From the NCBI GenBank assembly GCA_016699365.1, contig CP064973.1:237684-301683 (forward strand): DNA of 64,000 nucleotides, given 5' to 3'. Below the pieces are notes generated by a model. It was given only the letters and a program-made list of their open reading frames with translations, searched no databases and was not told the DNA's origin. Of the stretch, positions 1,495 to 54,312 are shown one piece after another (position 1 is the first letter of the stretch; each line of letters begins with the position of its first letter). The translations under genes were made by a program, and so were the position numbers. The DNA comes from Candidatus Nomurabacteria bacterium (GTDB lineage: Bacteria; Patescibacteriota; Minisyncoccia; Phycocordibacterales; UBA9973).

Positions 1495-1644
1495 ATTTGT
1501 TTGAATTAGTGGGAATCTTTCCTTACAGGAACAGTGCACCTTTTCACTCCAATAAAATTGAAGCCTGAAAAGCTTTTCGATTCCTACACGCAAGCAAAGC
1601 AGTTTGCTTGCTCGGGAGGACAAAGCCTCGCTTCGCTCATTTTG

Positions 1645-1717
1645 TCCTCCCGGTAGGAATCGAACCTACGACCCTCTCCTTAAAAGGGAGCTGCTCTACC
1701 GACTGAGCTACGGGAGG
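1645..1717 (-). tRNA. tRNA-Lys (anticodon UUU)
   Basis: Hand-folded cloverleaf: acceptor CCTCCCG/CGGGAGG, D-arm GCTC..GAGC, anticodon loop CTTTTAA, T-arm GTAGG TTCGATT CCTAC. There is one G.A mismatch at the top of the anticodon stem. Confidence 0.7.
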
Positions 1718-2759: not shown

Positions 2760-3106
2760 TTGTGTATAATATATAGGAAGCACATAAAAAATTGCACCCA
2801 AGATTTCCCATTTAGGGATAAATATTTAAGGGATAGCAAAAAAATATCGAAACAGTTCATTATGTACGGAAATTATTATTATCCGTACCGGTTCTCAGTT
2901 TTTCTGTTCTTTAGGATAGGAGAAAGGGTCTCATGCATGTTGCGTAAACTTTACGCGCCATACACGAGGCCCTTTTTTTATTGTCTTTTTTAAATACCTT
3001 TAAAATCCCCAAAGGGTATTTTAACTTTTTATAATATAAGCCAAGGCGAGGGCCCAAAGGATTTTGAGTTCTTAAATAGCCTTACGCAGGCGGGTAGCCG
3101 AGCAGA

Positions 3107-3240
3107 GCAAAAATCCAGCAGGATTTTATGCGTGCTTTTTAAAAGTGATGGATAAAATAAAAGTTTTCCAGAAACTAAAGTCTGTATAACCACATACATG
3201 ATATGGGTTACAAAAAAAACAAAAACCCTTGCGGGTTTTT
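3107..3240 (+). repeat. conserved intergenic RNA-like element, copy A (5' hairpin, core, A-rich tract, terminator hairpin)
   Basis: Colinear homology with copy D (50361-50490, minus), copy B (12776-12908) and copy C (54194-54300). Core is aaaagtgaTGGATAAAAtaaaagTTTTCCAGAAACtaaag. Ends in aaaaaccc-ttgc-gggttttt. Confidence 0.5.
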
Positions 3241-3964
3241 ATGCCAAAGCCTTTAATATAAATAGTTCCAAATCTTTATCTAAATCCCTATTCCCACTTC
3301 TAGCCTCGTGATATATATGATTGAGTGATTCTAGGAAATAAGATAGTTCTATGTCAGAAAATTTATTTGTCATAGAGAGCGCTTTTTTATGGACAAATGG
3401 TGATAATTTTGTACTTTCAGGACTTAGTTTGTTTTGTTGTTGTTTATAAACAATCAAAGCATTTTTAATGGCCCAAAAAAGAGCAGGTATTATCTCCTCT
3501 GCAGAAACATTGTCATCTCGCATTTTTCTAAATATAATCCAAGCATTTTTCTTATCTCTAGAACCAAAACTATCTGTAAAAGAAAATATAACTGGTTTTT
3601 CTGCGACTTTCTTTTCTGTTTTAAAAAATTCTATTTCTGCATTTGCATGCTCCAGGTCTTTTAAAACTGGTTTTTTTAAATCAGTTTCCACTATGATAAA
3701 CAAATTTTCTGAATCAGACATTTCAGAAATCTTTTCCAAAACAAAAACACTTTTTTCTTCATTGTCTATCGAGTGTTTTAAAACCAAGGCTGTTTTGCTG
3801 CCAAATAAGTTAGAGCAATAAATTATAGAAGATAGAGACTGTGGAGATATGTCACTATCTGAAAAGTACTCAATATCAAATTGATCTTTTTTCAACTTTT
3901 CTAAAAAACGCTCAAGTGCTTTTGTGCGTTTTTCTATATCATTACCATAAAAAACATGTAGCAT
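3239..3964 (-). CDS. holA: DNA polymerase III delta subunit (HolA)-like
   Basis: 241 aa; N-terminal FYGND resembles the HolA YGxD start. Weak similarity only. Confidence 0.4.
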   Translation of the reverse strand: MLHVFYGNDIEKRTKALERFLEKLKKDQFDIEYFSDSDISPQSLSSIIYCSNLFGSKTALVLKHSIDNEEKSVFVLEKISEMSDSENLFIIVETDLKKPVLKDLEHANAEIEFFKTEKKVAEKPVIFSFTDSFGSRDKKNAWIIFRKMRDDNVSAEEIIPALFWAIKNALIVYKQQQNKLSPESTKLSPFVHKKALSMTNKFSDIELSYFLESLNHIYHEARSGNRDLDKDLELFILKALA

Positions 3965-11064: not shown

Positions 11065-12762
11065 ATGATTCAATTTGATGAAGATAAGCAAAATAAACGA
11101 CTTGAAGACCTTAAATACCAAGAAGAGGAGGACTTGGTTCGTATTCTTTCTGCAGCTAAATACAATATTCCCTATATAGATCTATCTACAACAACTATTG
11201 AGAACGAGGCCCTTCGCATTGTTCCTGAAAAAACTGCTCGTGCAGTTGAAATTGCGCCATTCAAAGTGCTTGGAAAAAATCTACACATTGCGGTTAGATC
11301 CCCTGTTAGAGATGACTTATCTCAAGTTATTGAAGATATAAAAAGTCAAAATTATAATCCAATTTTATATATGGCTTCGCTTGCATCGTTAGAAAAAGCT
11401 TGGTCTAGATATGGAGAAATATCTTTTGCATCTGTGTCACGTACAGGTGGATTAGATATTTCAGCAGAAGCCCTGCTAGATATTGCAAATAAAGTTCACA
11501 ATATAGATGATGTTGCAAAAACAGTAGAAGATGCGTCGACTGACAACAAAACCCATAAACTATCTCACATGCTTGAGATAATACTTGGTGGGGCTATTGC
11601 TATAAAAGCATCTGATATACATATAGAGCCAGGAGAACAAAATGTCCAAGTTAGATTTAGGTTAGACGGTGTTTTGCAAAACATACTTACATTCCCCCAC
11701 GAAACATACAAGCTTGTAAATTCTCGTATAAAACTTATATCTGGACTGAAGCTCGTAATAAAAAGTGTTGCTCAAGACGGTCGCTTTAGTATATTCCAGT
11801 CTGATGGGACTGAGATATCAATGCGTGTTTCAATTATCCCTGGAGCATATGGTGAATCAATTGTAATGCGTATACTTGATCCAAAATCAATTCAAGTAAA
11901 ACTAGATGAGCTTGGAATTCCAAAAAAACTTCTATCTCTTATGGAAAATGAGATTGCAAAACCAAACGGACTCATACTTATCACTGGTCCAACTGGATCT
12001 GGTAAAACCACAACACTATATGCATTCCTGCGAAAAATATACTCTCCAGAAATAAAAGTTATTACAATCGAAGACCCTATAGAATATCACCTTGCTGGAA
12101 TTACTCAAACACAAGTTGAAAAAAATTATACATTTCTAGAAGGACTCCGTTCTGCACTTCGCCAAGACCCAGACGTAATAATGGTTGGAGAAATTCGTGA
12201 CTCTGAAACTGCAAAAATCGCAGTAGAATCAGCTCTAACCGGACACTTGGTTTTCTCTACACTACACACAAACAATGCAGGTGGTGTGATCCCTCGTCTT
12301 ATAGACCTAGAGGTAAACCCAAAAATTCTTGTGTCTGCACTGAGACTTTCTATTGCTCAGCGTCTTGTTAGAAAACTTTGCCAGAACTGTAAAGCAGAAG
12401 ATGTTCTATCTCCTGAAGACGAAGTTTTAATTAGAAAAATTCTCACTGGAATAAATACAGAAGGTAAAAAAGTAGAAGAATTTAGCATTGACCCAAACCA
12501 ACCACTGAAAATATGGAAAGCTGTTGGTTGCGACAAATGCAATAAAACTGGATACAAGGGGCGTATGGGAATATATGAAGCAATTCAGACTGATGAGTCT
12601 ATAGAGAAAATAATTCCTGAAAATCCGAGTGAGCGCGAAATAAAAAGAGTTGCTCATGCACAAGGAACACTCGACATGAAGGAGGATGGAATAATAAAAG
12701 TACTTACTGGTATTACAAGTTTATCTGAAGTGAAAAGTGTGGTGGAGTTGGATGAAGAATAA
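11065..12762 (+). CDS. pilB: type IV pilus assembly ATPase PilB / GspE family
   Basis: 565 aa; GspE N-terminal domain; Walker A GPTGSGKTT; Asp box; His box; C-terminal CxxC zinc motif (CQNCK...CDKC). Confidence 0.85.
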   Translation: MIQFDEDKQNKRLEDLKYQEEEDLVRILSAAKYNIPYIDLSTTTIENEALRIVPEKTARAVEIAPFKVLGKNLHIAVRSPVRDDLSQVIEDIKSQNYNPILYMASLASLEKAWSRYGEISFASVSRTGGLDISAEALLDIANKVHNIDDVAKTVEDASTDNKTHKLSHMLEIILGGAIAIKASDIHIEPGEQNVQVRFRLDGVLQNILTFPHETYKLVNSRIKLISGLKLVIKSVAQDGRFSIFQSDGTEISMRVSIIPGAYGESIVMRILDPKSIQVKLDELGIPKKLLSLMENEIAKPNGLILITGPTGSGKTTTLYAFLRKIYSPEIKVITIEDPIEYHLAGITQTQVEKNYTFLEGLRSALRQDPDVIMVGEIRDSETAKIAVESALTGHLVFSTLHTNNAGGVIPRLIDLEVNPKILVSALRLSIAQRLVRKLCQNCKAEDVLSPEDEVLIRKILTGINTEGKKVEEFSIDPNQPLKIWKAVGCDKCNKTGYKGRMGIYEAIQTDESIEKIIPENPSEREIKRVAHAQGTLDMKEDGIIKVLTGITSLSEVKSVVELDEE

Positions 12763-12775
12763 AATTTAATCTCAG

Positions 12776-12908
12776 AAAATCCCCAAAGGGGATTTTCTTT
12801 TTATTTTAATTATGGATAAAAAAGGGTTTTCCAGAAACCAAGCTCTGATTAACCGCAAACTGAATTGAAGTTATAAAAAGAAAAAACCCACTCTGTGGGT
12901 TTTTTCTA
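12776..12908 (+). repeat. conserved intergenic RNA-like element, copy B
   Basis: 5' hairpin aaaatccccaaaggggatttt. Core ttaTGGATAAAAaagggTTTTCCAGAAACcaagc. Terminator aaaaaacccactctgtgggtttttt. Confidence 0.5.
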
Positions 12909-14312: not shown

Positions 14313-14570
14313 AAAAATAGAGAGTTTCCCGTTTCCAGAAAACCCTCATTTTGTTCAAGTATGAAAAGAACAATTTTTTTCAAAAAAGAATTTATTCTTT
14401 TTTGAAATTATTTTAAATTTAAGAACTTTTTTATAAAAATCTTCAACCTCCACGCCTTCTTTAAGGGCGCTTCGGTTGAAGAATCCCCATGAAAACACAC
14501 CCTGTAATCTAACAGGATGTGTTCAAATTGTCAATTAGTAAATTTGGTATCAATAAATCATAATCTATAT

Positions 14571-19386: not shown

Positions 19387-20484
19387 TTATCTATTCATAG
19401 GCATAACTAAATATATAAATGTTTGATCACTACCACCTTTTATAATAAGAGGTTTATTGGTTCCATTGAATTTCAAAGTTATACTATCTTGGTTTATAGA
19501 TTGAAAACAATCAATAATATATCTGTAATTAAAACTCATAGAAATTGATTCACCTTCTATAGTCGCATCAATTTTAGTTTTATTTTCTCCTATATCATTA
19601 TTTCTAGCATTCAATTCACATATTTTATTTTTAGGATCTATATTGAAAGTTATTTGATTAAATTTATCAGAAAAAATATTTGATATTTTTAAAGCATTTA
19701 GGAAATCTTGTCTCAATAAAACAACTTCTGTTGTAAAGTTTTTTGGAATTATTTGTTTATAATCTGGGAAAACACCATCTATTATTCTTGAGGTTATATA
19801 AATACCATCAAAAATAAAAGATATTTGATTTTTACTAATAACACATTCTACATCCTCGTTTGTAGTCTCAAGTATTCGCACTATTTCATTTATATTCTTA
19901 AAAGGTATAAGAATTGGGGAAAAATCTGTACTATGTTTTGATTTTATCTTTTTTTCTGCAAGTCTGAATGAGTCTGTGGCAACAAAAACTAAATTTTCAT
20001 CCTCAGAATATATATAAACACTAGCCATTTCAGGTTTTATATCAGATGTTGAACAACTATAAACAACAGCTTTTATACCTTCAACTATTTTCTTTGAATT
20101 TAAAGTGTGTTTATCCCCAGAAACAACAGGTATTGTTGGAAAATCCTCATATGAGCTAGATTTAATCAATAATTGGTTATTTTTAGTTATTATTACCAAA
20201 TTATCATTTTCTTGTTTTAGTTCTATATCTTCATTGTCTGAAACTGTTGAGAAAATCTGCGATAAAACATCACCTCTTACAGCTACAACACCTTCTTTGT
20301 TAACCTTTACAGGAATATCAACCTCTATACCTAAACTTAGGTTTGTTGATCTAAACTTAAGTGTTTTACCAGAAGCAATTATAAGAATAGAACTTAAAAT
20401 AGGTAAAGTTAGATTTTTACCTGTAATTCTCTCTGTTAATTGGATTGCTTGTTTTATTCTTTTTGCACTAGTAGTTATATTCAT
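19387..20484 (-). CDS. dnaN: DNA polymerase III beta sliding clamp
   Basis: 365 aa; three-domain clamp length; adjacent to dnaA. Confidence 0.85.
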   Translation of the reverse strand: MNITTSAKRIKQAIQLTERITGKNLTLPILSSILIIASGKTLKFRSTNLSLGIEVDIPVKVNKEGVVAVRGDVLSQIFSTVSDNEDIELKQENDNLVIITKNNQLLIKSSSYEDFPTIPVVSGDKHTLNSKKIVEGIKAVVYSCSTSDIKPEMASVYIYSEDENLVFVATDSFRLAEKKIKSKHSTDFSPILIPFKNINEIVRILETTNEDVECVISKNQISFIFDGIYITSRIIDGVFPDYKQIIPKNFTTEVVLLRQDFLNALKISNIFSDKFNQITFNIDPKNKICELNARNNDIGENKTKIDATIEGESISMSFNYRYIIDCFQSINQDSITLKFNGTNKPLIIKGGSDQTFIYLVMPMNR

Positions 20485-20693
20485 AGTATTTTTTATTTAT
20501 TTAATTAAATACTTATATTAGTCCTGTGGATATGTGGATATCTATGTTTTATGTTGGTATATAAAGTAATTTTGAATTTATTTATTATATTTTTAAGTTA
20601 ATTTAAATTCATTTAATTTTATATCTAACAATAAACTAAACTTTATATATACTTATTAATTATTTATGTACACATTTCAGATAGTTATTAACA
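20485..20693. promoter_or_regulatory. candidate oriC: overlapping DnaA-box-like 9-mers plus AT-rich unwinding region between dnaA and dnaN
   Basis: TGTGGATATGTGGATAT at 20525-20541 (two 8/9 matches to TGTGGATAA), followed by a roughly 130 bp tract with almost no G/C (20560-20690). Confidence 0.5.
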
Positions 20694-22040
20694 TTATTTA
20701 AACATAACTCTTATCTGTTCTAATTCTTGTACAAGAGTTTGGTTTGTTTTTAAATCTTCTTTTATCTTCAAGAATGAATGTATAACTGTTGTATGATCCT
20801 TACCGCCCAATTTTTGACCTATTAGAGGATATGAAACATTAAAATCCTCACGAAGAAGATACATTATCATCTGTCTGGTTTTAACAATCTCTTTTCTGCG
20901 TGTTTTTTCATAAACTGTAGCTTCATCTATATTGTAAAATTGAGTAACAATCTTAACTACTTCATCTATAGAAACACTTTTCTTAGGTCTAATGTTGTTT
21001 TTTATTAGATTTTTAGCTTCTGTTAATGAAATCTCTTTATTTTTCAACCTAGTTTGACAAACAATAGCGTTCAAACTTCCTTCAAGTTCTCGAATAGATC
21101 CATTTATAGATGAAGCTATAAAATCTACAACATCGTCATTTATAGGAACACCCTGATCTCTTACCTTGGCTTTAAGTATAGCTAGTCTTGCTTCATATTC
21201 TGGCTCACCTATATCAATAATCATTCCAGCTTGGAATCTAGACTTCATACGATCTTCTAGACCAGGAATATAGTTTGGATGTTTATCTGAAGAAAATATT
21301 ATTTGTTTATTGTTCTCGTAGAAAGTGTTAAAAGTGTGGAAAAGCTCTTCTTGGGTCTTTTCCATCTTCCCTACAAACTGAATATCATCAATTATTAAAA
21401 CATCATACTTCCTATATTTCTCTTTGAAAGAGTTTGCTTTATTTGTTTGAAAAGAAGTTATTAAATCTGTGGCAAATTTTTCAAGGGTTATGTAATGTAC
21501 TCTTTTTTCAGGGTATTTTGTCTTTATTGTGTTCCCTATTGCTTGAATTAAGTGTGTTTTACCAAGCCCTGTTCCTCCATATACGAAAAATGGGTTATAA
21601 CTTGTTCCTGGTTTACTTACAATAGCTTGTGAAGCAGCAAAAGCTAATTCATTGAAACCTCCAACTATAAAACCATCGAATATATACCTAGGGTTTAAAT
21701 TATCCTCTTTGTTTATATAAAGATCTGCTAAAGGCAATTCTTTATTTAACATAGATTTTTGTTCAACCTCTTCTATTTTTTGTCTTATATCGTGTTTTAC
21801 TATTACAAATTCAACACCTCGAACATGTTCGGAGTGATTCATAAGAGTTTTTAATATCAATTTATGGTATTTATTGAAAAGCCAATCTTTAACAAATTCA
21901 TTAGGTACTCCAACATAAGCAGTTCCCGAATCTTGTTTAGTAATAGAAGTATTTTTAAACCAAGTGCTGAAATTAGCCCTAGAAACAGACTGTTCAATCT
22001 CAGATAGGCATGTTTCCCAAAGTTGTTTATTTTCTCCCAT
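20694..22040 (-). CDS. dnaA: chromosomal replication initiator DnaA
   Basis: 448 aa; AAA+ Walker A GGTGLGKTHL; C-terminal DNA-binding domain (helix-turn-helix with KTRRKEIV..RQ..MYL). Confidence 0.9.
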   Translation of the reverse strand: MGENKQLWETCLSEIEQSVSRANFSTWFKNTSITKQDSGTAYVGVPNEFVKDWLFNKYHKLILKTLMNHSEHVRGVEFVIVKHDIRQKIEEVEQKSMLNKELPLADLYINKEDNLNPRYIFDGFIVGGFNELAFAASQAIVSKPGTSYNPFFVYGGTGLGKTHLIQAIGNTIKTKYPEKRVHYITLEKFATDLITSFQTNKANSFKEKYRKYDVLIIDDIQFVGKMEKTQEELFHTFNTFYENNKQIIFSSDKHPNYIPGLEDRMKSRFQAGMIIDIGEPEYEARLAILKAKVRDQGVPINDDVVDFIASSINGSIRELEGSLNAIVCQTRLKNKEISLTEAKNLIKNNIRPKKSVSIDEVVKIVTQFYNIDEATVYEKTRRKEIVKTRQMIMYLLREDFNVSYPLIGQKLGGKDHTTVIHSFLKIKEDLKTNQTLVQELEQIRVMFK

Positions 22041-22186
22041 ATGTTTAGTTAGTCTATTATAGTCTACAGATACATAATAAAAAGCCCTTAAATAAAACTA
22101 GAATTGTGTATAAACTGTTAATAATATCTAATAAAAAATAAAACAGATTCTTGCCGAAAAAAGCCTTTTAATGTATGATGCAAGGC

Positions 22187-22321
22187 ATGTCACAAACATA
22201 CCAACCAAAGAAGAAAAAGAGAGCCAAAACTCACGGTTTTCGAAACAGAATAAAGTCAAAAAACGGTAAAAAAATACTTACCCGAAGACGTCAAAAAGGC
22301 AGAGCAAAGCTAACTGTATAG
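22187..22321 (+). CDS. rpmH: 50S ribosomal protein L34
   Basis: 44 aa [44 protein letters not shown]. Below the ORF-track length cutoff. Confidence 0.85.
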
Positions 22322-22326
22322 TAGTA

Positions 22327-22656
22327 ATGTTTCCTAAATCCCAAAAGATTTCAAAAAAATCCCCTATTTTCAAGGAAAAATCAGGTTTTTTTGGTCTTTA
22401 TAATAGAATTACTATCAAAAATAGCCTTAATTTAAAGGCCAAAATAGCTATTGTTGTATCTAAAAAGGTTTTAAATAAAGCTGTAGACAGAAATAGATTA
22501 AAAAGAATAATATATCACTATTTAAGGCCTAAAAATAAGGATATTTCTAATAAAGAGATCGTTATTTTCATAAAAGGCCCAATACCAGAAAAACCTAGTG
22601 TTTTACTAGAAGATATAGAAAAAACCCTTATAAATGCACTTAAAAAAGCAAAATAA
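22327..22656 (+). CDS. rnpA: RNase P protein component
   Basis: 109 aa basic protein; RNR motif region [17 protein letters not shown]; follows rpmH. Confidence 0.7.
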
Positions 22657-22894
22657 AGATAGAATTATCAATATAATTATTGATTTTTATCAAAAATATA
22701 TATCCCCCGACACTGGCTTACCTCATAAAATAGGCTTAATAAATAGACCTGTATGTGTTTTTAGCCCTACTTGCTCAGAATATACAAGAATAGCAATTAT
22801 TAAACATGGTCTGGTAAAAGGCTCTTTTCTAGGCCTAAAACGTATACTACGTTGTCATCCTTGGCAAAAAAAACACTTTGATCCAGTTCCATAA
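22634..22894 (+). CDS. yidD: membrane protein insertion efficiency factor YidD
   Basis: FYQKYISP...[10 protein letters not shown]...[10 protein letters not shown] matches the YidD signature. Confidence 0.7.
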
Positions 22895-22933
22895 ATAGAT
22901 TGCAATTTCAGTGTTTATATATACAATTGACTA

Positions 22934-23665
22934 ATGCTATCAAATATTTGGACAACTATATTTTACGAGCCGTTATATAACGCACTCGTATTTTTTACAG
23001 GCACTTTCGGAGGTATAGGACTTGCTGTTATAACTCTTACTCTAATAGTAAAGATTATAATGTTCCCTCTTACAAAAAAATCTATATTAAGCCAAGCAAA
23101 AATATATGCACTAAATGACGATATAGAAAAAATAAAGAAAGACTATCCAGATAAAACAGAACAGTCTAAAAAAACACTAGAATTATATAAAAAAAACAAT
23201 GTAAACCCATTTTCTAGTTGTTTGGTTATATTAATACAATTACCTATAATCATAGCTCTATACCAAGTATTTCTAAGAGGGATAGAATCTAGTACTGGGG
23301 TTCTATATTCTTTTGTTCATATACCAGAAAACCTATCAACTATGTTTTTAGGTATAAATCTAGAAGAAAAAAGTATTATATTTGCAGTTCTTGCTGGTAT
23401 TACACAATTTATACAAATGAAAATTAGCACATCTATGATAAAACCAGCGGATCCAAATGATGTTTCTTTTAAAGGTCAATTAGCAAAAAGTATGCAATTT
23501 CAAATGAAATACATATTACCATTCTTCATAACCTTTGTGGCCTACAGTGTTTCTGCTGCAATAGCTCTATATTGGGTTGCTAGTAATATTATTACAATAA
23601 TTCAAGAGCTTATAATTAGATCAAGGGCTGGTTTGATAAAAAAAGAAGATCTTTTGAAGATATAA
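22934..23665 (+). CDS. yidC: YidC/Oxa1-family membrane insertase (short form)
   Basis: 243 aa, 5 TM; conserved position after yidD. Confidence 0.8.
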   Translation: MLSNIWTTIFYEPLYNALVFFTGTFGGIGLAVITLTLIVKIIMFPLTKKSILSQAKIYALNDDIEKIKKDYPDKTEQSKKTLELYKKNNVNPFSSCLVILIQLPIIIALYQVFLRGIESSTGVLYSFVHIPENLSTMFLGINLEEKSIIFAVLAGITQFIQMKISTSMIKPADPNDVSFKGQLAKSMQFQMKYILPFFITFVAYSVSAAIALYWVASNIITIIQELIIRSRAGLIKKEDLLKI

Positions 23666-23667
23666 AA

Positions 23668-24138
23668 ATGAAACCGGATGATTTAAAAAAAATAATAGGA
23701 GAAATTATAGAATTAATAAACATCCCTTTTGATGAAGTAGATTTTTATTTAGATGAAGAATCTGGGGTTTATTGGTTTAAGATAAAAACCAAAGAATCTA
23801 AGCTTTTAATAGGTAAAGATGGTGAAACTCTAAAGGCTATAAACTATCTTTTCAGAAAGATTGTGGAATCTAAAAATCCAGAAAATATACAGTTTTTAAA
23901 TGTTCTAATAGATGTCAATGATTATCAAAAGAACAGAATAGAAAACATAAAAACAATAGCTCATATGATGGCAGAAAGGGCAAGATATTTTAAATCAAGC
24001 GTAGAAATAGACCCAATGAGCTCTTTTGACAGAAGAATAATACATACATTTTTAGAAAATAAATCAGATATAAAAACAGAATCTACTGGAACCGGACTGA
24101 ATAGAAGAGTTGTAATAAAATACGTAGGAAATATATAA
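23668..24138 (+). CDS. jag: Jag/KhpB-like RNA-binding protein (KH plus R3H)
   Basis: 156 aa; C-terminal R3H-like motif RRIIHTFLEN; conserved position after yidC. Confidence 0.7.
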   Translation: MKPDDLKKIIGEIIELINIPFDEVDFYLDEESGVYWFKIKTKESKLLIGKDGETLKAINYLFRKIVESKNPENIQFLNVLIDVNDYQKNRIENIKTIAHMMAERARYFKSSVEIDPMSSFDRRIIHTFLENKSDIKTESTGTGLNRRVVIKYVGNI

Positions 24139-30785: not shown

Positions 30786-31706
30786 TTGAACATGTCTGAA
30801 GTCGAAAATCTAAAACGTCAATTTTTGGAATATATGGAAATTGAACGTGGAGCAAGTCTTAATACTGTTTCAAATTACGATAGATACTTGTCTCGGTTTT
30901 TTGAGTTTATAAAATCTGACAATATAAAAAACATCACAGATGATTCAATTCGTGAATACAGACTATATCTAAATAGGCAGCCAGGTATGCATGTTCGTGG
31001 GCAGTCTAGCTCTACAATGAAGAAAAACACTCAAAACTATTACTTAATAGCGCTTCGAAGATTTCTAAAATACCTGATGAAGCGCGGAATTAGTGCAATA
31101 TCCCCCGATGCAATAGAGCTCGCAAAGATCAAGGAAAGACATCTAGATCTTATAAGTGTAGATGAGCTAAACAGACTCTTGAAAGCTCCAGACACAGAAG
31201 AAATCGGTTCTCTTAGAGATCGTGCGATATTGGAACTTTTTTTCTCGACAGGTCTTCGCTTGTCAGAGTTATGTTCTTTGAATCGAGATTTAGATTTATC
31301 TAAAGATGAATTTTCAATTCGAGGTAAAGGTGAAAAGGTTCGTGTGGTTTTTCTGTCCGATACTGCAAAATCTGCAATACGTGCTTATTTAAAAAAGCGC
31401 GTTGATACAGATGAGCCAATGTTCGTTCAGCACGCTCGCAATAAAGGTCAGGGTGGTGGACGTTTAACACAAAGGTCAATTGAAAGAATTGTAAAACACT
31501 ATGCAATAAAGGCCGGTATTTCCAAGAAAGTTACTCCGCACGTAATACGTCACTCTTTTGCAACAGACCTACTCTCAAACGGCGCTGATATTCGCTCTGT
31601 GCAGATGATGCTTGGGCATGCAAATATTGCTACAACTCAAATATATACACACGTAACAGACAAACAACTTCGAGATGTACACAAAAAGTTTCATTCAAAG
31701 AAATAA
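30786..31706 (+). CDS. xerC: tyrosine site-specific recombinase XerC/XerD family
   Basis: 306 aa; C-terminal catalytic motifs RHSFATDLLSNGADIRSVQMMLGHANIATTQIYTHV with R..HxxR..Y. Confidence 0.8.
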   Translation: MNMSEVENLKRQFLEYMEIERGASLNTVSNYDRYLSRFFEFIKSDNIKNITDDSIREYRLYLNRQPGMHVRGQSSSTMKKNTQNYYLIALRRFLKYLMKRGISAISPDAIELAKIKERHLDLISVDELNRLLKAPDTEEIGSLRDRAILELFFSTGLRLSELCSLNRDLDLSKDEFSIRGKGEKVRVVFLSDTAKSAIRAYLKKRVDTDEPMFVQHARNKGQGGGRLTQRSIERIVKHYAIKAGISKKVTPHVIRHSFATDLLSNGADIRSVQMMLGHANIATTQIYTHVTDKQLRDVHKKFHSKK

Positions 31707-42321: not shown

Positions 42322-42606
42322 ATAAACAGCCTATATGTTTCACGTGAAACATATAGGCTGTTTATATATTAAATTAACCTTTTTTGTTACACATGAAACA
42401 AGAAATATCATCCTTTTGTATGTAAGCACACCAATTTGTGTTTTATTTTTCCAATTGCACATAATTTGGTTTCATGTGTAACAACGAAATTTATAAATAG
42501 CTAATCTTGTTTTTGTTTCATGTGCAACGTTTATATGTAGGTGTATTTACATACTTTTGTTTTTATAATCTCTGTGTAACAATAAAAATACTGTTACACA
42601 TGAAAC
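42322..42606. promoter_or_regulatory. iteron-like array: 5 copies of a 14-bp semi-palindromic motif GTT(T/A)CAC(G/A)TG(A/T)AAC, including a perfect 44-bp palindrome
   Basis: Copies at 42336-42352 (the centre of palindrome 42322-42365 ataaacagcctatatgtttcacgtgaaacatataggctgtttat), 42386-42400, 42468-42483 (reverse), 42515-42528 (reverse) and 42591-42606, the last abutting the yraN ATG. Confidence 0.45.
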
Positions 42607-42981
42607 ATGCCTAAAGTATTTACTTCAAAATCTCAAAAGAAAGGTGAATTGGGAGAGGATTTGGCCTGTAGGTTTCTCATGAAACATGGTTATTATATTG
42701 TGGAGCGTAATTACACACGAAGACTTGGTGAAATAGACATAATAGCCGAAAAATACGGCGTGATTCACTTTATAGAGGTTAAATCAGTCTCTTTTTATGC
42801 AACCATTAGGCCTGAAGAAAATATGCATCCAATGAAATTAAAGAAAATATATAGGACAATAGAGGTTTATATCCAAGAGAGGGGTATAAAGGACAAAGAC
42901 TGGCAACTCGATCTAGTGTGTGTCCTTTTGGATGAAGTGGGGAAGAGGGCTAAATTTAGAGTTATTGAAAATATTGTTTAA
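42607..42981 (+). CDS. yraN: YraN-family (UPF0102) predicted endonuclease
   Basis: 124 aa; KGELGEDLACRFLMKHGYYIVERNYTRRLGEIDIIAEK...IHFIEVKS matches the YraN signature. Confidence 0.7.
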   Translation: MPKVFTSKSQKKGELGEDLACRFLMKHGYYIVERNYTRRLGEIDIIAEKYGVIHFIEVKSVSFYATIRPEENMHPMKLKKIYRTIEVYIQERGIKDKDWQLDLVCVLLDEVGKRAKFRVIENIV

Positions 42982-49380: not shown

Positions 49381-49542
49381 ATGAGCAAGAACAAGAAAAA
49401 TATTCGTATTGTAATCAAGAAAGATTTAGCAAAAGACAATCGTGAGATGTCCAGAAATGTATTTGCTAATGTAAATGTAAAAGAGAAGTCATTCAAGGAT
49501 AAGTCCAAATATACAAGAAAGGTAAAACATAAAGACACTTGA
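49381..49542 (+). CDS. small (53 aa) highly basic protein
   Basis: MSKNKKNIRIVIKKDLAKDNREMSRNVFANVNVKEKSFKDKSKYTRKVKHKDT. Its stop codon lies inside the -35 box of the downstream promoter. Confidence 0.25.
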   Translation: MSKNKKNIRIVIKKDLAKDNREMSRNVFANVNVKEKSFKDKSKYTRKVKHKDT

Positions 49543-49810
49543 CAAACACTAGCTACAATGTTATACTACTCCTAGCTCAATAAAAGAGCTTATATTGATC
49601 CGGCAGCCGTGTTGGCGTCCGCTAGCTTTCGCAAGAAAGCCCGTGGACTAGAACAACCGGCATAATTAGGTCAGGGCGATAATGATGAGAACGAATTCTT
49701 GATTCTAAACCATGTGGGGTTTGGAAAAGATATGAAGGGAAGCCCTAAAACAAATTGCGATGTGCCATGGCCTATCGCGCCCCCGAACTTTTTAAGTTTG
49801 GGGGTTTTTT
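49539..49810 (+). ncRNA. candidate sRNA/leader (about 240 nt) with consensus sigma70 promoter and intrinsic terminator; class unknown
   Basis: TTGACA (49539-44), 17 nt spacer, TATACT (49562-67). GNRA hairpin GCTTTC-GCAA-GAAAGC. Long-range pairing GGGCGATA/TATCGCGCCC. Terminator cccccgaactt..aagtttggggg + T7 at 49779-49810. Longest internal ORF is 28 aa. Confidence 0.35.
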
Positions 49811-49828
49811 TATGTTAAAATTCATAAT

Positions 49829-49987: not shown

Positions 49988-50362
49988 ATGGACAAAGAAC
50001 CAACACAAAATACAATAGAGAATACAGAATCAGTGGATATGGAACAGTTTGGTGAGAATATAAAAAATGCATCTCCAAGTACTCTTCTAAAAATAAAAGA
50101 GGTTATGAAACGCCCTGAAACATGGACTGGTATAGCGACCATGGTAATGGGAAGCATCGTAGGAGTACAGGTATTTGAACATAGTGAGGTGGTAAAAGAA
50201 AACTGGGATGATCTAGGGAAAAGCGCAGAAAGTTTTCGAGGCGTTTTAAATGCTTATAAGGTTTTTGCTTCTGGTGTGTTCACAATGGGAGTCCTAGTAA
50301 CAATGCTTGGGATAAGTAAAGGTGGTGATATTGCAAAACAAAAAGCTAATTTAGAACAATAA
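49988..50362 (+). CDS. hypothetical protein with two hydrophobic segments
   Basis: 124 aa ORF. Confidence 0.35.
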   Translation: MDKEPTQNTIENTESVDMEQFGENIKNASPSTLLKIKEVMKRPETWTGIATMVMGSIVGVQVFEHSEVVKENWDDLGKSAESFRGVLNAYKVFASGVFTMGVLVTMLGISKGGDIAKQKANLEQ

Positions 50363-50490
50363 AACCCGCAAGGGTTTTTGTTTTTTATAACCTATACCAC
50401 GCACTCGGTAATCTAGAGTTTATTTACCGGAAAATTTTTCTCTTATCCACCACTTTTAAAAAGCACACATAAAATCCTGCTGGATTTTTG
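50361..50490 (-). repeat. conserved intergenic RNA-like element, copy D (minus strand)
   Basis: Its reverse complement aligns base-for-base with copy A across roughly 130 nt, including the 5' hairpin aaaatccagcaggatttt and the terminator aaaaaccc-ttgc-gggtttt. Confidence 0.5.
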
Positions 50491-50813
50491 CTCAACTCGC
50501 GCCGGCCGCGCTCCGTCAGGCTTTTTAGAAAGTGTGGATTTATTTATATAGGAATTCAGAATCCTTGAGCCCAGGCTTTGCCCTTCAATTCCACGAGTAT
50601 ACGAACAAACGAGGACGAACGTTCCGTAAGGAAAAAGTATTCTGTTTGAGACAGCAGGCGAGTTAATACTTTTAGTGAGTCCGAGTTTTGTGAGTATTCG
50701 TGGGATTGAATGCAAAGAGGTTTTTGTGTTACTTTTTTGAAAAATTAACGATTAAAAAACAAAGAAAAATTCCGCAAAGCGGAATTTTTCTTTTGTTCAG
50801 TCTGATTTCAAAC

Positions 50814-52340
50814 CTATCTCGCGTATTCGATAACTCTCGTTTCTCGAATCAAAGTCACCTTAATCTCACCTGGATATTTCAATTCAGATTCAATTTTCTT
50901 TGCGATATCACGAGCCATCTCCTTTGCTTCTACATCGCCAACTTTTTCTGGAGTTACGAATAGTCTGATTTCACGTCCAGCCTGCAATGCGTATGATTTC
51001 TCTACACCATCGAAGTTGTTTACAAGTGCTTCAAGTTCTGCAAGACGACGAAGGTAGTTTTCGACACTGTCGCGTCTAGCACCAGGACGTCCTCCAGATA
51101 TATAGTCAGCTGTTTGTACTATCACAGCTTCAATAGTTTCGTGAGGTACATCATCATGGTGAGATTTCATCGCTGTAATTACGCGTGGGTCAGCGCCAAA
51201 TTTTTGAAGTATTCGAATACCAATGTCTATGTGTGTACCTTGCACCTCATGATCAAGTGCTTTACCTATATCGTGAACAAGTGCACCTGCTTTTGCTATT
51301 TGTACATCAGCCCCAAGTTCCTCGGCAATCATACCTGCGATATGGGTCATCTCGATAGAGTGTTGGAGTACGTTTTGTCCATAACTTGTACGGAAATATA
51401 GACGTCCGATTATAGCTACTATACGAGGGTCGAAGTTGAATATTCCACATTCGTAAACTGCTTGCTCACCCTTTTCTTTGATAATTTTATTTATATCTTC
51501 TTTTGCTTTGTCTACCATCTCTTCGATCTTTGCTGGCTGGATACGTCCATCAAGAATCAGGTTTTCAAGTGCAAGGCGTGCTATCTGTCTACGTACTGGA
51601 TCAAAGCTAGATATAACAATAGTTCCAGGTGTGTCGTCTACGATTAGCTCCACTCCTGCAGCGCGTTCAAACGCTCTGATGTTGCGCCCTTCTTTTCCTA
51701 TAATTTTTCCTTTGATTTCGTCGTTTGGAATAGTTACGTTTGTTGCCATAAGCTCGGCTGCAGTCGAAGACGCAAGACGTTGGATAGATGTAGACAATAT
51801 ATCTTTGGCTCTAGAGTCTAACTTTTCTTGACCAGATTGTTCTAATTTTTGCATACGAACAAGAAGGTCTTCTTCGTAATCTTTCTCTATAGTGCTCATA
51901 AGCTCAACCTTAGCATCCTCTCGAGTTAGTTTTGACACACGTTCTAGTTCTTTGTGTTTTTCTTCTTCTAGTTCAACTGTCTTTTCTTTTATTTTTTTTA
52001 TCTCTTCAACTTTTAGTTTTATATTTTCAACCTCTCTATCTATTTCAGTTTGGCGTGCATCTAGAAGCTCCTCTTTTTTGATTAGTCTTTTTTCGGTTTC
52101 TTTGAATTCTATTTCACGATTTTTCTCTTCTTTTTTAAGTTCTTCGTCACGCTCCTCGGCCTTTTTCTTGGCTTCGTCTGTTATTCTCTGTGCTTCCTCT
52201 TTTGCAGAGATCAGGATCTTTTTGATCTCAAGCTCCATTGAGCCCTTTTGTCCAAGGGCTATGATTAGTCGGAGATAATATCCGACGGCAACTCCCACGA
52301 CTAGAGCTAGTCCTAGGAATGCTAATAAATGTAAATTCAT
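50814..52340 (-). CDS. rny: ribonuclease Y
   Basis: 508 aa; N-terminal TM; coiled-coil; KH domain; HD domain (HSIEMTHIAGMIA...VHDIGK). Confidence 0.85.
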   Translation of the reverse strand: MNLHLLAFLGLALVVGVAVGYYLRLIIALGQKGSMELEIKKILISAKEEAQRITDEAKKKAEERDEELKKEEKNREIEFKETEKRLIKKEELLDARQTEIDREVENIKLKVEEIKKIKEKTVELEEEKHKELERVSKLTREDAKVELMSTIEKDYEEDLLVRMQKLEQSGQEKLDSRAKDILSTSIQRLASSTAAELMATNVTIPNDEIKGKIIGKEGRNIRAFERAAGVELIVDDTPGTIVISSFDPVRRQIARLALENLILDGRIQPAKIEEMVDKAKEDINKIIKEKGEQAVYECGIFNFDPRIVAIIGRLYFRTSYGQNVLQHSIEMTHIAGMIAEELGADVQIAKAGALVHDIGKALDHEVQGTHIDIGIRILQKFGADPRVITAMKSHHDDVPHETIEAVIVQTADYISGGRPGARRDSVENYLRRLAELEALVNNFDGVEKSYALQAGREIRLFVTPEKVGDVEAKEMARDIAKKIESELKYPGEIKVTLIRETRVIEYAR

Positions 52341-54060: not shown

Positions 54061-54193
54061 TTTGGTTAGAGCTTTTTGCCAGCTCGGCCCGCGAATTTAT
54101 TTCGCGGGTTTTTTTATTGTCCACAACTTCTTTAATGTATTTGATAACTCAGAGTTTTGTTTCTAGAAAAATATTTTTCATCCTCACCCTTTA

Positions 54194-54300
54194 AAAGTAG
54201 TGGATAAAAGAAAGGTTTTCCAGAAACCAAACTTTACACAACCACGAACGTGATACAGGTTTTGTATAAAAGAAAAAATCCCCGGAGGGGGATTTTTTCT
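54194..54300 (+). repeat. conserved intergenic RNA-like element, copy C
   Basis: Core agtaGTGGATAAAAgaaagGTTTTCCAGAAACCaaac; terminator aaaaaatccccggagggggatttttt. Confidence 0.5.
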
Positions 54301-54312
54301 TTCGGATGGATT

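What the first reader, a model, noticed from the sequence alone, without database searches (positions are those of the whole stretch)
3107..3240. Four-copy conserved intergenic RNA-like element with terminator and compensatory hairpin changes
Four homologous intergenic elements lie at 3107-3240 (+), 12776-12908 (+), 54194-54300 (+) and 50361-50490 (-). They share a roughly 60 nt core (aaaagtG.TGGATAAAA.AAAG.TTTTCC(A/G)G.AAAC..A.CT...). Each ends in an A-rich tract and a GC hairpin followed by a T-run: aaaaaCCC..GGGttttt, and in copy C aaaaaatCCCC..GGGGAtttttt. Copies A and D align almost base-for-base over about 130 nt. The small hairpin around TTTTCCAG changes compensatorily: GGTTT/AAACC in B and C, AGTTT/AAACT in A, ATTT/AAAT in D. 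The terminator orientation implies a transcribed unit on the element's strand. The elements are not consistently upstream of any gene, so they look more like a multi-copy small RNA family than promoters. The core also contains a 7-8/9 match to a DnaA box (TGGATAA). A degenerate fifth fragment lies at about 14335-14365 (gtttcccgtttccagaaaaccc). I cannot assign them to any RNA family I know.
Basis: seen in the sequence. Interest (0 to 1): 0.7.

Follow-up and report, generated by a model that had tools for sequence, protein, structure and literature searches.

The report
Repeated structured RNA-like module, CPR bacterium
Five copies of a roughly 110-base non-coding unit lie in the origin region of a tiny uncultured Nomurabacteria (CPR) genome; it matches no known RNA family and is most likely a lineage-specific structured small-RNA module, though its function and even its transcription are not shown.

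Summary
The repeat is real.

The window is the dnaA/dnaN origin region of a Candidatus Nomurabacteria MAG. No Rfam family matches.

Related MAGs keep copies at three syntenic sites, although fast-evolving neighbour proteins are only 34-50% identical and flanking spacers no longer align.

In the long copies (A, D and their counterparts), the first 20 nt of the core form the 3' strand of a 19-bp helix. That helix encloses two hairpins, one with 7 of 10 pairs changed compensatorily. In D the module is the 3' end of a roughly 280-nt RNA-like structure (81 pairs, 17 compensatory).

No sigma-70 promoter, conserved ORF, terminal inverted repeats or target duplication was found. The 3' hairpins are bidirectional terminators shared with convergent genes.

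Best reading: a new lineage-specific structured ncRNA family (about 0.5). Main rival: a REPIN-like hairpin repeat (about 0.25). Transcription and function are untested.

The parts
3134..3240 (+). Copy A, short unit. P0 3' strand 3134-3153; A-rich linker; P2 3155-3158 with 3180-3183; P3 hairpin 3162-3176 with loop UCCAG 3167-3171; AACC/GGUU hairpin about 3186-3209; bidirectional terminator 3221-3240, which overlaps the stop codon of the convergent holA-like gene.
   Evidence: 81.2 bits
3078..3133 (+). Copy A, long-form extension. Remnant of the P0 5' strand, hairpin H1 (3089-3099, GGC-GGGUA-GCC) and hairpin H2 (3107-3131). A TATAAT box at 3031-3036 is a possible promoter for this form (inference only).
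   Evidence: the block is 82% identical to the syntenic copy in L036 while the flanks do not align
12774..12907 (+). Copy B. The pilB terminator hairpin (12774-12798) occupies the place of H2. The core and 3' region run 12799-12878 and the unit's own bidirectional terminator is 12879-12907.
   Evidence: 67.8 bits; identical in four other assemblies of the same species
54186..54302 (+). Copy C. Core, AACC/GGUU hairpin and terminator 54269-54302, which is shared with the convergent tig gene.
   Evidence: (79.3 bits)
54086..54197 (-). It is degenerate and lies head-to-head with C; together they can form a long imperfect hairpin. Its terminator 54086-54110 is shared with orf228.
   Evidence: E 5e-8; 66.2 bits; the syntenic copy is in L034
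50361..50464 (-). Copy D, short unit. Terminator 50361-50378, shared with the convergent orf124.
   Evidence: 72.8 bits
50465..50539 (-). Copy D, long-form module. The P0 5' strand (50520-50539, AUCCACACUUUCUAAAAAGC) pairs with 50445-50464. P0 encloses hairpins H1 and H2.
   Evidence: inverted repeat I1; 19 of 19 pairs; MFE fold, z -2.75; counterparts z -4.2 and -4.9
50540..50737 (-). 5' domain of 'X', a structured RNA-like region upstream of and continuous with copy D (the model spans about 50462-50737). It is conserved, in inverted orientation relative to rny, in L035.
   Evidence: 81 pairs, all standard pairs in both sequences, 17 compensatory versus 1-5 in the slid controls

Best explanation
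The five copies are members of a lineage-specific family of structured non-coding RNA modules in Candidatus Nomurabacteria (Paceibacterota, CPR).

Anatomy of one unit (~110 nt):
- a 20-nt segment, GCUUUUUAAAAGUGRUGGAU;
- an A-rich linker, AAAAGAAA;
- an extended hairpin, P2-P3, with loop UCCRG;
- a weaker AACC/GGUU hairpin;
- an A-tract, a GC hairpin and a U-tract that act as a terminator in both directions.

Two forms exist. In the long form (A, D and the counterparts in L036 and L035) the first 20 nt are the 3' strand of a ~19-bp helix P0. P0 closes a three-way junction with two hairpins, H1 and H2. In D this junction is itself the 3' part of a ~280-nt structured RNA next to rny. Short copies (B, C, E) carry only the 3' half.

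Inferred working: the units are transcribed on the element strand, the long forms probably from their own weak -10 boxes and the short ones from a local start or by read-through. The conserved unpaired A-rich segment and the UCCRG loop would be the surface that binds a protein or another RNA. Each copy also supplies the terminator of the adjacent convergent gene.

Shown: the repeat, the helices and their compensatory changes, persistence at syntenic sites, and absence of coding potential. Inferred: transcription, strand, and any trans-acting function.
For: - Five copies are cleanly separated from background.
- No Rfam family matches.
- H2: 7 of 10 pairs change on both sides among four sequences, giving three entirely different stems.
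- H1 switches between GGC/GCC, GCC/GGC and GCGC/GCGC.
- P0: 19/19, 18/19 and 18/19 pairs in D, L036 and L035, with one C-G to U-A exchange. A keeps 13 of 19, including two U-G pairs.
- Minimum-free-energy folds recover P0, H1 and H2 with z -2.75, -4.17 and -4.93.
- Core hairpins: 86% of cells paired versus 28-61% in slid controls; 5 pairs change on both sides; 2 of 500 shuffles reach the covariation score.
- X: 81 pairs, 17 compensatory, every cell a standard pair, 5 of them G-U, so no A-C cells.
- Copies sit at syntenic sites in other MAGs although neighbouring proteins are 34% (orf228) and 50% (HolA-like) identical. The A block is 82% identical while its flanks do not align.
- A and D share the same terminator sequence next to different genes, so the terminator travels with the unit.
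- The tiny ORF MDK(R/I)K... is broken by frameshifts and early stops in D, B, L034 and L035 (read directly from the sequences).
Against: - No expression data were available.
- No sigma-70-like promoter lies upstream of the core in any copy, although the genome has canonical promoters.
- Within the core, G-U (7) and A-C (5) cells do not single out a strand, and its covariation rests on 8 sequences from which the structure was derived.
- The 3' variable part and the terminator are not conserved in two of the three counterparts (L036, L035).
- Copy E is degenerate.
- No antisense targets above chance were found in the window.
- Variable 5' extent, a head-to-head pair, an inverted arrangement in L035, and apparent gene conversion between A and D (identical H2, which differs in L035 and L036) also fit a selfish repeat.
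Confidence: 0.5

Rival explanations
1. REPIN/REP- or MITE-like selfish hairpin repeat. In this reading the unit is a short palindromic DNA element that is copied within the genome as single-stranded DNA or by recombination. It settles in harmless 3'-3' intergenic sites, occurs as singlets and inverted doublets, and is only incidentally transcribed, possibly serving as a terminator or 3' stabiliser.
For: - Each core contains a 29-nt imperfect palindrome (P2-P3).
- C and E form an inverted doublet that folds into a long hairpin.
- In the long forms, the sequence upstream of the P0 5' strand weakly resembles an inverted core (about 11 of 21 positions, by eye).
- All copies lie next to gene 3' ends.
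- The 5' extent varies while the 3' end is common.
- The A site is empty in L030-L033, and the D unit is inverted in L035.
- Contigs L034 and L037 end exactly at the core edge, as expected for repeats in short-read assemblies.
- Strand-neutral G-U/A-C counts in the core.
- No promoter.
Against: - No terminal inverted repeats and no target-site duplication at the A junction.
- No transposase, RAYT or reverse transcriptase among the Pfam-scanned ORFs of the window (most ORFs of about 110 aa or more); only a XerC/D-type integrase at 30786-31706.
- Copies are only 57-87% identical to each other rather than a young swarm.
- Only five copies in 74 kb, and none in 55 kb from relatives with 80-87% identical RNase Y.
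- By PolA identity, L036 (87%) is closer to the window than L030/L032 (81%). The empty A site therefore needs only one gain, not mobility.
- Copies are retained at syntenic sites across divergence that has erased the flanking spacers.
- No hits in phage or viral collections.
Confidence: 0.25
2. Purely cis-acting 3'-end module. In this reading the units are portable bidirectional terminator and mRNA-stabiliser cassettes. They end and protect the transcripts of the flanking convergent genes against 3'-5' exonucleases and RNase Y, with no trans-acting role.
For: - Every copy abuts the stop codon of a gene and provides its only visible terminator: holA-like, orf124, tig and orf228.
- B follows the pilB terminator as a second terminator in tandem.
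- PNPase and RNase Y genes are in the window.
Against: - A terminator alone does not need a 60-nt conserved sequence plus P0, H1 and H2.
- In L030-L033 holA is served by the neighbouring terminator without the element.
- In the L036 and L035 counterparts the conserved part is the core, not the terminator.
Confidence: 0.12
3. Double-stranded DNA binding sites near the replication origin. The candidates are a DnaA-box-containing titration or regulatory site, or a site for another dimeric DNA-binding protein, kept free of transcription by flanking terminators.
For: - The window spans dnaA/dnaN with a likely oriC at 20485-20693.
- The most invariant part of the core is TGGATAA, which on the opposite strand reads TTATCCA, 7-8 of 9 positions of a DnaA box.
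- Every copy is bracketed by terminators.
Against: - Each unit has only one box-like motif.
- Box-like matches are not enriched in the window (29 versus 21 +/- 4).
- The motif is accounted for as one strand of helix P0, whose partner AUCCACAC changes compensatorily in L035.
- Symmetric changes in both arms of P2/P3 and in H2 are not expected for protein half-sites.
- The true parS array lies elsewhere (42336-42686).
- Whether copies are confined to the origin region is unknown.
Confidence: 0.06

Closest known systems
Multi-copy sRNA paralogue families such as streptococcal csRNAs, Listeria LhrC1-5 and Vibrio Qrr1-5 (comparison from general knowledge)
   Same: Several ~100-nt non-coding units lie in separate intergenic regions. 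Each ends in an intrinsic terminator. A conserved segment is followed by a more variable part, and the family is confined to a narrow lineage.
   Different: Those families share a recognisable regulated promoter (CiaR, LisR or sigma-54/LuxO) and have proven transcripts. Here no promoter was found. Two copies are 3' extensions of larger structured regions. There is no sequence or Rfam similarity.
REP / REPIN elements mobilised by RAYT transposases, and other intergenic hairpin repeats such as ERIC, BOX and Correia (comparison from general knowledge)
   Same: The units are imperfect palindromes found as singlets and inverted doublets at gene 3' ends. Their hairpins are kept by compensatory changes, and they may act as terminators or stabilisers.
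   Different: No RAYT or transposase gene was seen, and there are no terminal inverted repeats or target duplication. Local copy number is low and copies are strongly diverged. A three-way-junction module and a ~280-nt structured extension are attached. Copies are retained at syntenic sites across species-level divergence.
Bidirectional Rho-independent terminators
   Same: The 3' end of every copy is an A-tract, GC stem and T-tract that can terminate both convergent transcripts.
   Different: This accounts for only the last ~30 nt. It does not explain the conserved 60-nt core or the upstream helices.

Membership tests
Any Rfam 15 family | Match to a curated covariance model at or near the gathering score | tested here: not met
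   At gathering threshold the whole window gives only six tRNAs. Permissive scans of 2900-3400 and 50300-50850 give only sub-threshold, unrelated hits.
Rho-independent (bidirectional) terminator | GC-rich stem-loop followed by a T-run, with an A-tract upstream for action in both directions | tested here: met
   Terminator-like sites were called at 3219-3242, 12879-12907, 50361-50378, 54086-54110 and 54279-54305, against 0.2-0.4 expected per region.
Trans-acting sRNA gene family | Own promoter upstream of each copy | tested here: not met
   No sigma-70-type site on the element strand upstream of any core. Only weak TANNNT hexamers are seen by eye. Non-canonical promoters were not covered.
Trans-acting sRNA gene family | Discrete transcript with defined 5' and 3' ends | not testable with these tools
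   No RNA-seq data were available.
Trans-acting sRNA gene family | Conservation at syntenic sites beyond neutral expectation, with structure-preserving changes | tested here: met
   Three syntenic pairs: A-L036, D-L035 and E-L034. Compensatory changes occur in H2, H1, P0 and P3.
Trans-acting sRNA gene family | Complementarity of a conserved or variable segment to target mRNAs | tested here: inconclusive
   The longest antisense matches in the window (11-16 nt) are about as long as those of shuffled controls, whose means are about 12 and maxima 13-15. The rest of the genome was not available.
MITE | Terminal inverted repeats and a target-site duplication | tested here: not met
   The only inverted repeats found are the internal helices and the terminators. 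The filled versus empty A site shows no duplication beyond T-runs.
REP/REPIN | Short palindromic unit occurring as singlets and inverted doublets in intergenic DNA | tested here: met
   P2-P3 palindrome; C/E inverted doublet.
REP/REPIN | Cognate RAYT (Y1 transposase) gene and tens to hundreds of copies per genome | tested here: inconclusive
   No Y1 transposase among the scanned ORFs of the 64-kb window. There are 5 copies in 74 kb. The remaining ~630 kb of the genome could not be read.
DnaA-box cluster (oriC, datA or DARS type) | Several DnaA boxes clustered within a few hundred bp | tested here: not met
   Each unit has one box-like motif at 7-8 of 9 positions. Window-wide there are 29 matches against 21 +/- 4 expected. 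The likely oriC with paired boxes is at 20525-20541.
parS centromere site | 16-bp palindrome TGTTNCACGTGAAACA | tested here: not met
   The core palindrome is GGTTT-N5-AAACC, an odd-length arrangement. Six canonical parS-like sites lie at 42336-42686 instead.
Small-protein gene or leader peptide | Open reading frame conserved in frame and length | tested here: not met
   The ORFs starting at (A/G)TGGATAAA encode 8-18 aa. B and L035 are frameshifted, and D and L034 stop early (sequences).
Riboswitch or cis-regulatory leader | Located upstream of, and co-oriented with, a regulated gene | tested here: not met
   Four of five copies face a convergent gene. B is separated from ruvB by its own terminator and 400 nt.

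The most novel reading that the evidence does not exclude
The repeated unit could be the portable 3' domain of a previously undescribed CPR-specific structured RNA, made up of X plus the P0/H1/H2 three-way junction and lying next to rny. In that reading the dispersed short copies are functional partners of this RNA: extra binding platforms or decoys for the same protein, or a conserved 'handle' followed by a copy-specific variable segment that acts as a guide. That would make it a new RNA-based regulatory system in a bacterium that has few regulators and, it appears, leaderless mRNAs.
Probability: 0.12. Interest if true: 0.75.

Novelty: new member of a known kind. Interest (0 to 1): 0.45.

Why it matters
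My paper searches found no description of non-coding RNAs like these in CPR/Patescibacteria genomes. Standard models recognise none of the several RNA-like intergenic regions in this window.

A five-copy conserved module, a three-way-junction domain with clear compensatory changes, and a ~280-nt structured neighbour are concrete candidates for the first lineage-specific regulatory RNAs in Nomurabacteria.

If they turn out to be selfish hairpin repeats instead, that would show such elements persist in a 0.7-Mb reduced genome. Either outcome can be tested with existing activated-sludge metatranscriptomes.

Tried and rejected
- **Rfam.** Gathering threshold on the whole window, and permissive scans on four regions, gave nothing.
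- **Public collection scans with core patterns.** Genome contigs gave 21 stretches, of which only L018 is a clear homologue; L021 is a weak hit that falls at the start of an ORF. Metagenome contigs gave one chance hit inside an ORF. Viral contigs and phage BLAST gave nothing.
- **RNase P RNA, SRP, 6S, tmRNA, group I/II intron or small ribozyme identity for X or the module.** I considered these because of a CR-I-like GGGCAAAGCCUGGGCUC motif. I rejected them: no Rfam signal, the order of motifs is wrong, and no S-domain is present.
- **Sigma-54, FliA, ECF and extended -10 promoters in the core.** Checked by eye. Spacing or key bases do not fit, or are not conserved.
- **Leaderless small ORF** (MDKRK...). 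Rejected because of frameshifts.
- **parS.** Rejected; the canonical array is elsewhere.
- **dif/Xer site, boxA antitermination site, CsrA site, T-loop, anti-Shine-Dalgarno pairing.** Resemblances are partial and not conserved across copies.
- **Antisense targets in the window.** None above chance.
- **Intrinsic terminator reading of H2.** Superseded by helix P0.
- **'Patchy distribution implies mobility' argument for the A site.** Weakened once PolA identities showed L036 is closer to the window than the empty-site genomes.
- **One look-up of encoding contigs was wasted** (that product is not on record).

Full report
**Observation.** I read the four stated loci and aligned them. They share a conserved stretch, TTTAAAAGTGRTGGATAAAAGAAARGTTTTCCRGAAACYAAACTCT. 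After it come a less conserved ~30 nt, an A-tract, a GC hairpin and a T-run.

A profile HMM built from the four copies recovers them at E 1e-26 to 5.5e-29. It also finds a fifth copy on the minus strand at 54104-54197, head-to-head with C (E 5e-8).

A covariance model built later from eight non-redundant copies scores the five window copies at 66-81 bits. Everything else in the 64 kb scores 16.7 bits or less with filters off. So there are exactly five copies in the window.

**Where the window comes from.** The window's PilB protein occurs on a contig of MAG GCA_020047435.1. Its HolA-like protein also occurs on a 705-kb contig annotated Candidatus Nomurabacteria, locus tags IPJ63_. RNase Y relatives are named Paceibacterota/Patescibacteria. 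Pfam scans show that the window spans the replication-origin region, with rnpA, yidC, jag, dnaA and dnaN at 19.4-24.1 kb.

Neighbours of the copies are:
- A: dsbB on one side, a convergent holA-like gene on the other.
- B: pilB upstream, ruvB downstream.
- D: rny upstream, convergent orf124.
- C and E: orf228 and tig, which converge on them.

**Known families.** Rfam gives only six tRNAs at gathering threshold. Permissive scans of the loci give nothing relevant. Four literature searches found no description of such an element in CPR bacteria.

**Relatives.**
- One scan of representative genomes found a single clear homologue, L018 (Candidatus Paceibacterota DALYDX01), at the site syntenic with A.
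- The metagenome scan returned one chance hit.
- Contigs fetched through RNase Y and HolA homologues gave two more counterparts. L035 (RNase Y 96% identical) has a copy at the D site, but the whole unit is inverted relative to rny. L034 (RNase Y 95%) has a copy at the E site, next to an orf228 homologue that is only 34% identical.
- Genomes with 80-87% identical RNase Y have no copy in 55 kb.
- The A site is empty in L030-L033. There the upstream terminator abuts the holA stop codon.
- PolA identities place L036 (87%) closer to the window than L030/L032 (81%). One gain in the common ancestor of the window and L036 therefore explains the empty sites.
- Ten further kb beyond the window start hold no copy.
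- The A block is 82% identical between the window and L036, while the spacers on both sides do not align.

- *Helix P0.* In D, L036 and L035 the segment AUCCACACUUUCUAAAAAGC pairs with GCUUUUUAAAAGUGGUGGAU, which is the first 20 nt of the core. This gives 19/19, 18/19 and 18/19 pairs. L035 carries a C-G to U-A exchange and has lost a bulge. A keeps 13 of 19 pairs, including two U-G pairs.
- *Hairpins H1 and H2.* P0 encloses both. H2 has three completely different stems in four sequences under a conserved AGCA loop, and 7 of its 10 pairs change on both sides. H1 alternates GGC/GCC, GCC/GGC and GCGC/GCGC.
- *Free-energy folds.* They recover this three-way junction with z-scores of -2.75, -4.17 and -4.93.
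- *Region X.* In D and L035 the junction is preceded by a further ~200 nt. Over the ~280-nt region as a whole, 81 predicted pairs are all standard pairs in both sequences. Seventeen are compensatory, against 1-5 in slid controls, and 5 cells are G-U. That model was made on a stretch ending before the distal part of the P0 3' strand. Its 8-bp closing helix competes with P0 for the same bases, and P0 is the longer helix.
- *Strand.* The G-U pairs in X, in the outer part of H2 and in copy A's P0 would be A-C mismatches on the other strand. This points to the element strand.
Paired cells are 86% against 28-61% in slid controls, five pairs change on both sides, and 2 of 500 shuffles reach the covariation score. 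The structure was derived from the same eight sequences, and G-U (7) versus A-C (5) cells do not single out a strand there.
- *C and E.* Together they can fold into a long imperfect hairpin.

**Against a simple sRNA-gene picture.**
- The consensus scan finds no sigma-70-type promoter on the element strand upstream of any core. Yet this genome has canonical promoters, for example TTGACA-N17-TATACT at 49541-49570 and TATAAT-like boxes 6-12 nt before many start codons.
- The 3' hairpins are bidirectional and are the only visible terminators of the convergent genes.
- In L036 and L035 the 3' part differs entirely.
- A and D share the same terminator next to different genes, so the terminator is copied with the unit.
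- A and D also share an identical H2 that differs from those of L035 and L036. This suggests gene conversion within the genome.
- Copy E has a decayed core.

**Other readings tested.**
- *Coding.* The tiny ORF starting at (A/G)TGGATAAA is frameshifted or truncated in half of the copies.
- *Mobile element.* No terminal inverted repeats or target duplication were found. No transposase, RAYT or reverse transcriptase is among the Pfam-scanned ORFs, which cover most ORFs of about 110 aa or more; only a XerC/D-type integrase turned up.
- *DnaA box.* Matches are not enriched, and the motif is one strand of P0.
- *parS.* A canonical six-site array lies at 42336-42686, so the core palindrome is not parS.
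- *Phage origin.* No phage or viral similarity.
- *Antisense targets.* None above chance in the window.

**Verdict.** The finding is real and is larger than described. The best reading is a lineage-specific family of structured non-coding RNA modules (about 0.5). Long forms carry a P0/H1/H2 junction, and in D this is appended to a ~280-nt structured RNA. Short forms carry only the 3' half. Each unit brings a bidirectional terminator.

A REPIN-like selfish hairpin repeat is the main rival (about 0.25). A purely cis-acting terminator/stabiliser cassette follows (about 0.12), then a DNA-binding site (about 0.06). Transcription, copy number in the rest of the genome, and function remain untested.

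Noticed in passing
window 19387-24138: The window spans the chromosomal origin region: dnaN (19387-20484, -), dnaA (20694-22040, -), rnpA (22327-22656, +), yidC and jag/KhpB. The dnaA-dnaN spacer 20485-20693 is extremely AT-rich and holds two adjacent DnaA boxes (GTGGATATGTGGATAT, 20525-20541). It is probably oriC.
   Followed up: partly
window 42336-42686: An array of six parS-like sites lies within 350 bp, including one perfect TGTTTCACGTGAAACA at 42336 (0.41 matches expected by chance). It sits about 20 kb from dnaA, between a tRNA-Arg gene and a UPF0102 gene.
   Followed up: no
window 1644-1717 (-): ARAGORN calls this a 'tRNA-Stop' with anticodon UUA. Read directly, the anticodon loop is CUUUUAA, so the anticodon is UUU. 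The gene is most likely an ordinary tRNA-Lys and not a suppressor.
   Followed up: yes
window, upstream of ~30 long ORFs: No Shine-Dalgarno motifs precede start codons. TATAAT-like boxes often lie 6-12 nt upstream of the ATG, which suggests that mRNAs in this genome are mostly leaderless or have very short leaders.
   Followed up: partly
window 49541-49812 (+): A candidate unannotated ncRNA gene. It has a canonical promoter (TTGACA-N17-TATACT), about 240 nt of GC-richer sequence, and a strong terminator (CCCCCGAAC...GGGGGTTTTTTT). Rfam gives no match even at permissive thresholds.
   Followed up: partly
window 2770-2985 (+): A ~215-nt conserved non-coding region lies downstream of dsbB. A TATAAT box is at 2766-2771 and it ends in the terminator GGGTCTC...GAGGCCC-T7. 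It is nearly identical in L031-L033 and L036. Rfam gives no match.
   Followed up: partly
window 50462-50737 (-); L035 2728-3010: Region 'X' next to rny is a ~280-nt RNA-like structure with 81 predicted pairs, 17 of them compensatory between two genomes. It matches no Rfam family. It may be a new structured RNA in its own right.
   Followed up: partly
L036 768-1184: In the related Paceibacterota MAG, the place of copy B downstream of pilB is taken by a tRNA gene and another promoter-bearing (TTGACA-N17-TAGTAT) structured-looking non-coding region.
   Followed up: no
L035 2640-2683 and 2985-3047: Two inverted copies of a ~45-nt leader (TTTTTCAAAAAGT..ACCTCTTTGC) flank the inverted X+core unit in L035. 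This points to a rearrangement more complex than a simple inversion.
   Followed up: partly
window 12700-12762: The last codons of pilB (AAAAGTGTGGTGGAGTTGGATGAAGAATAA) resemble the core's AAAAGTGGTGGATAAGAGAA, in the same orientation and just upstream of copy B. This is probably chance.
   Followed up: no
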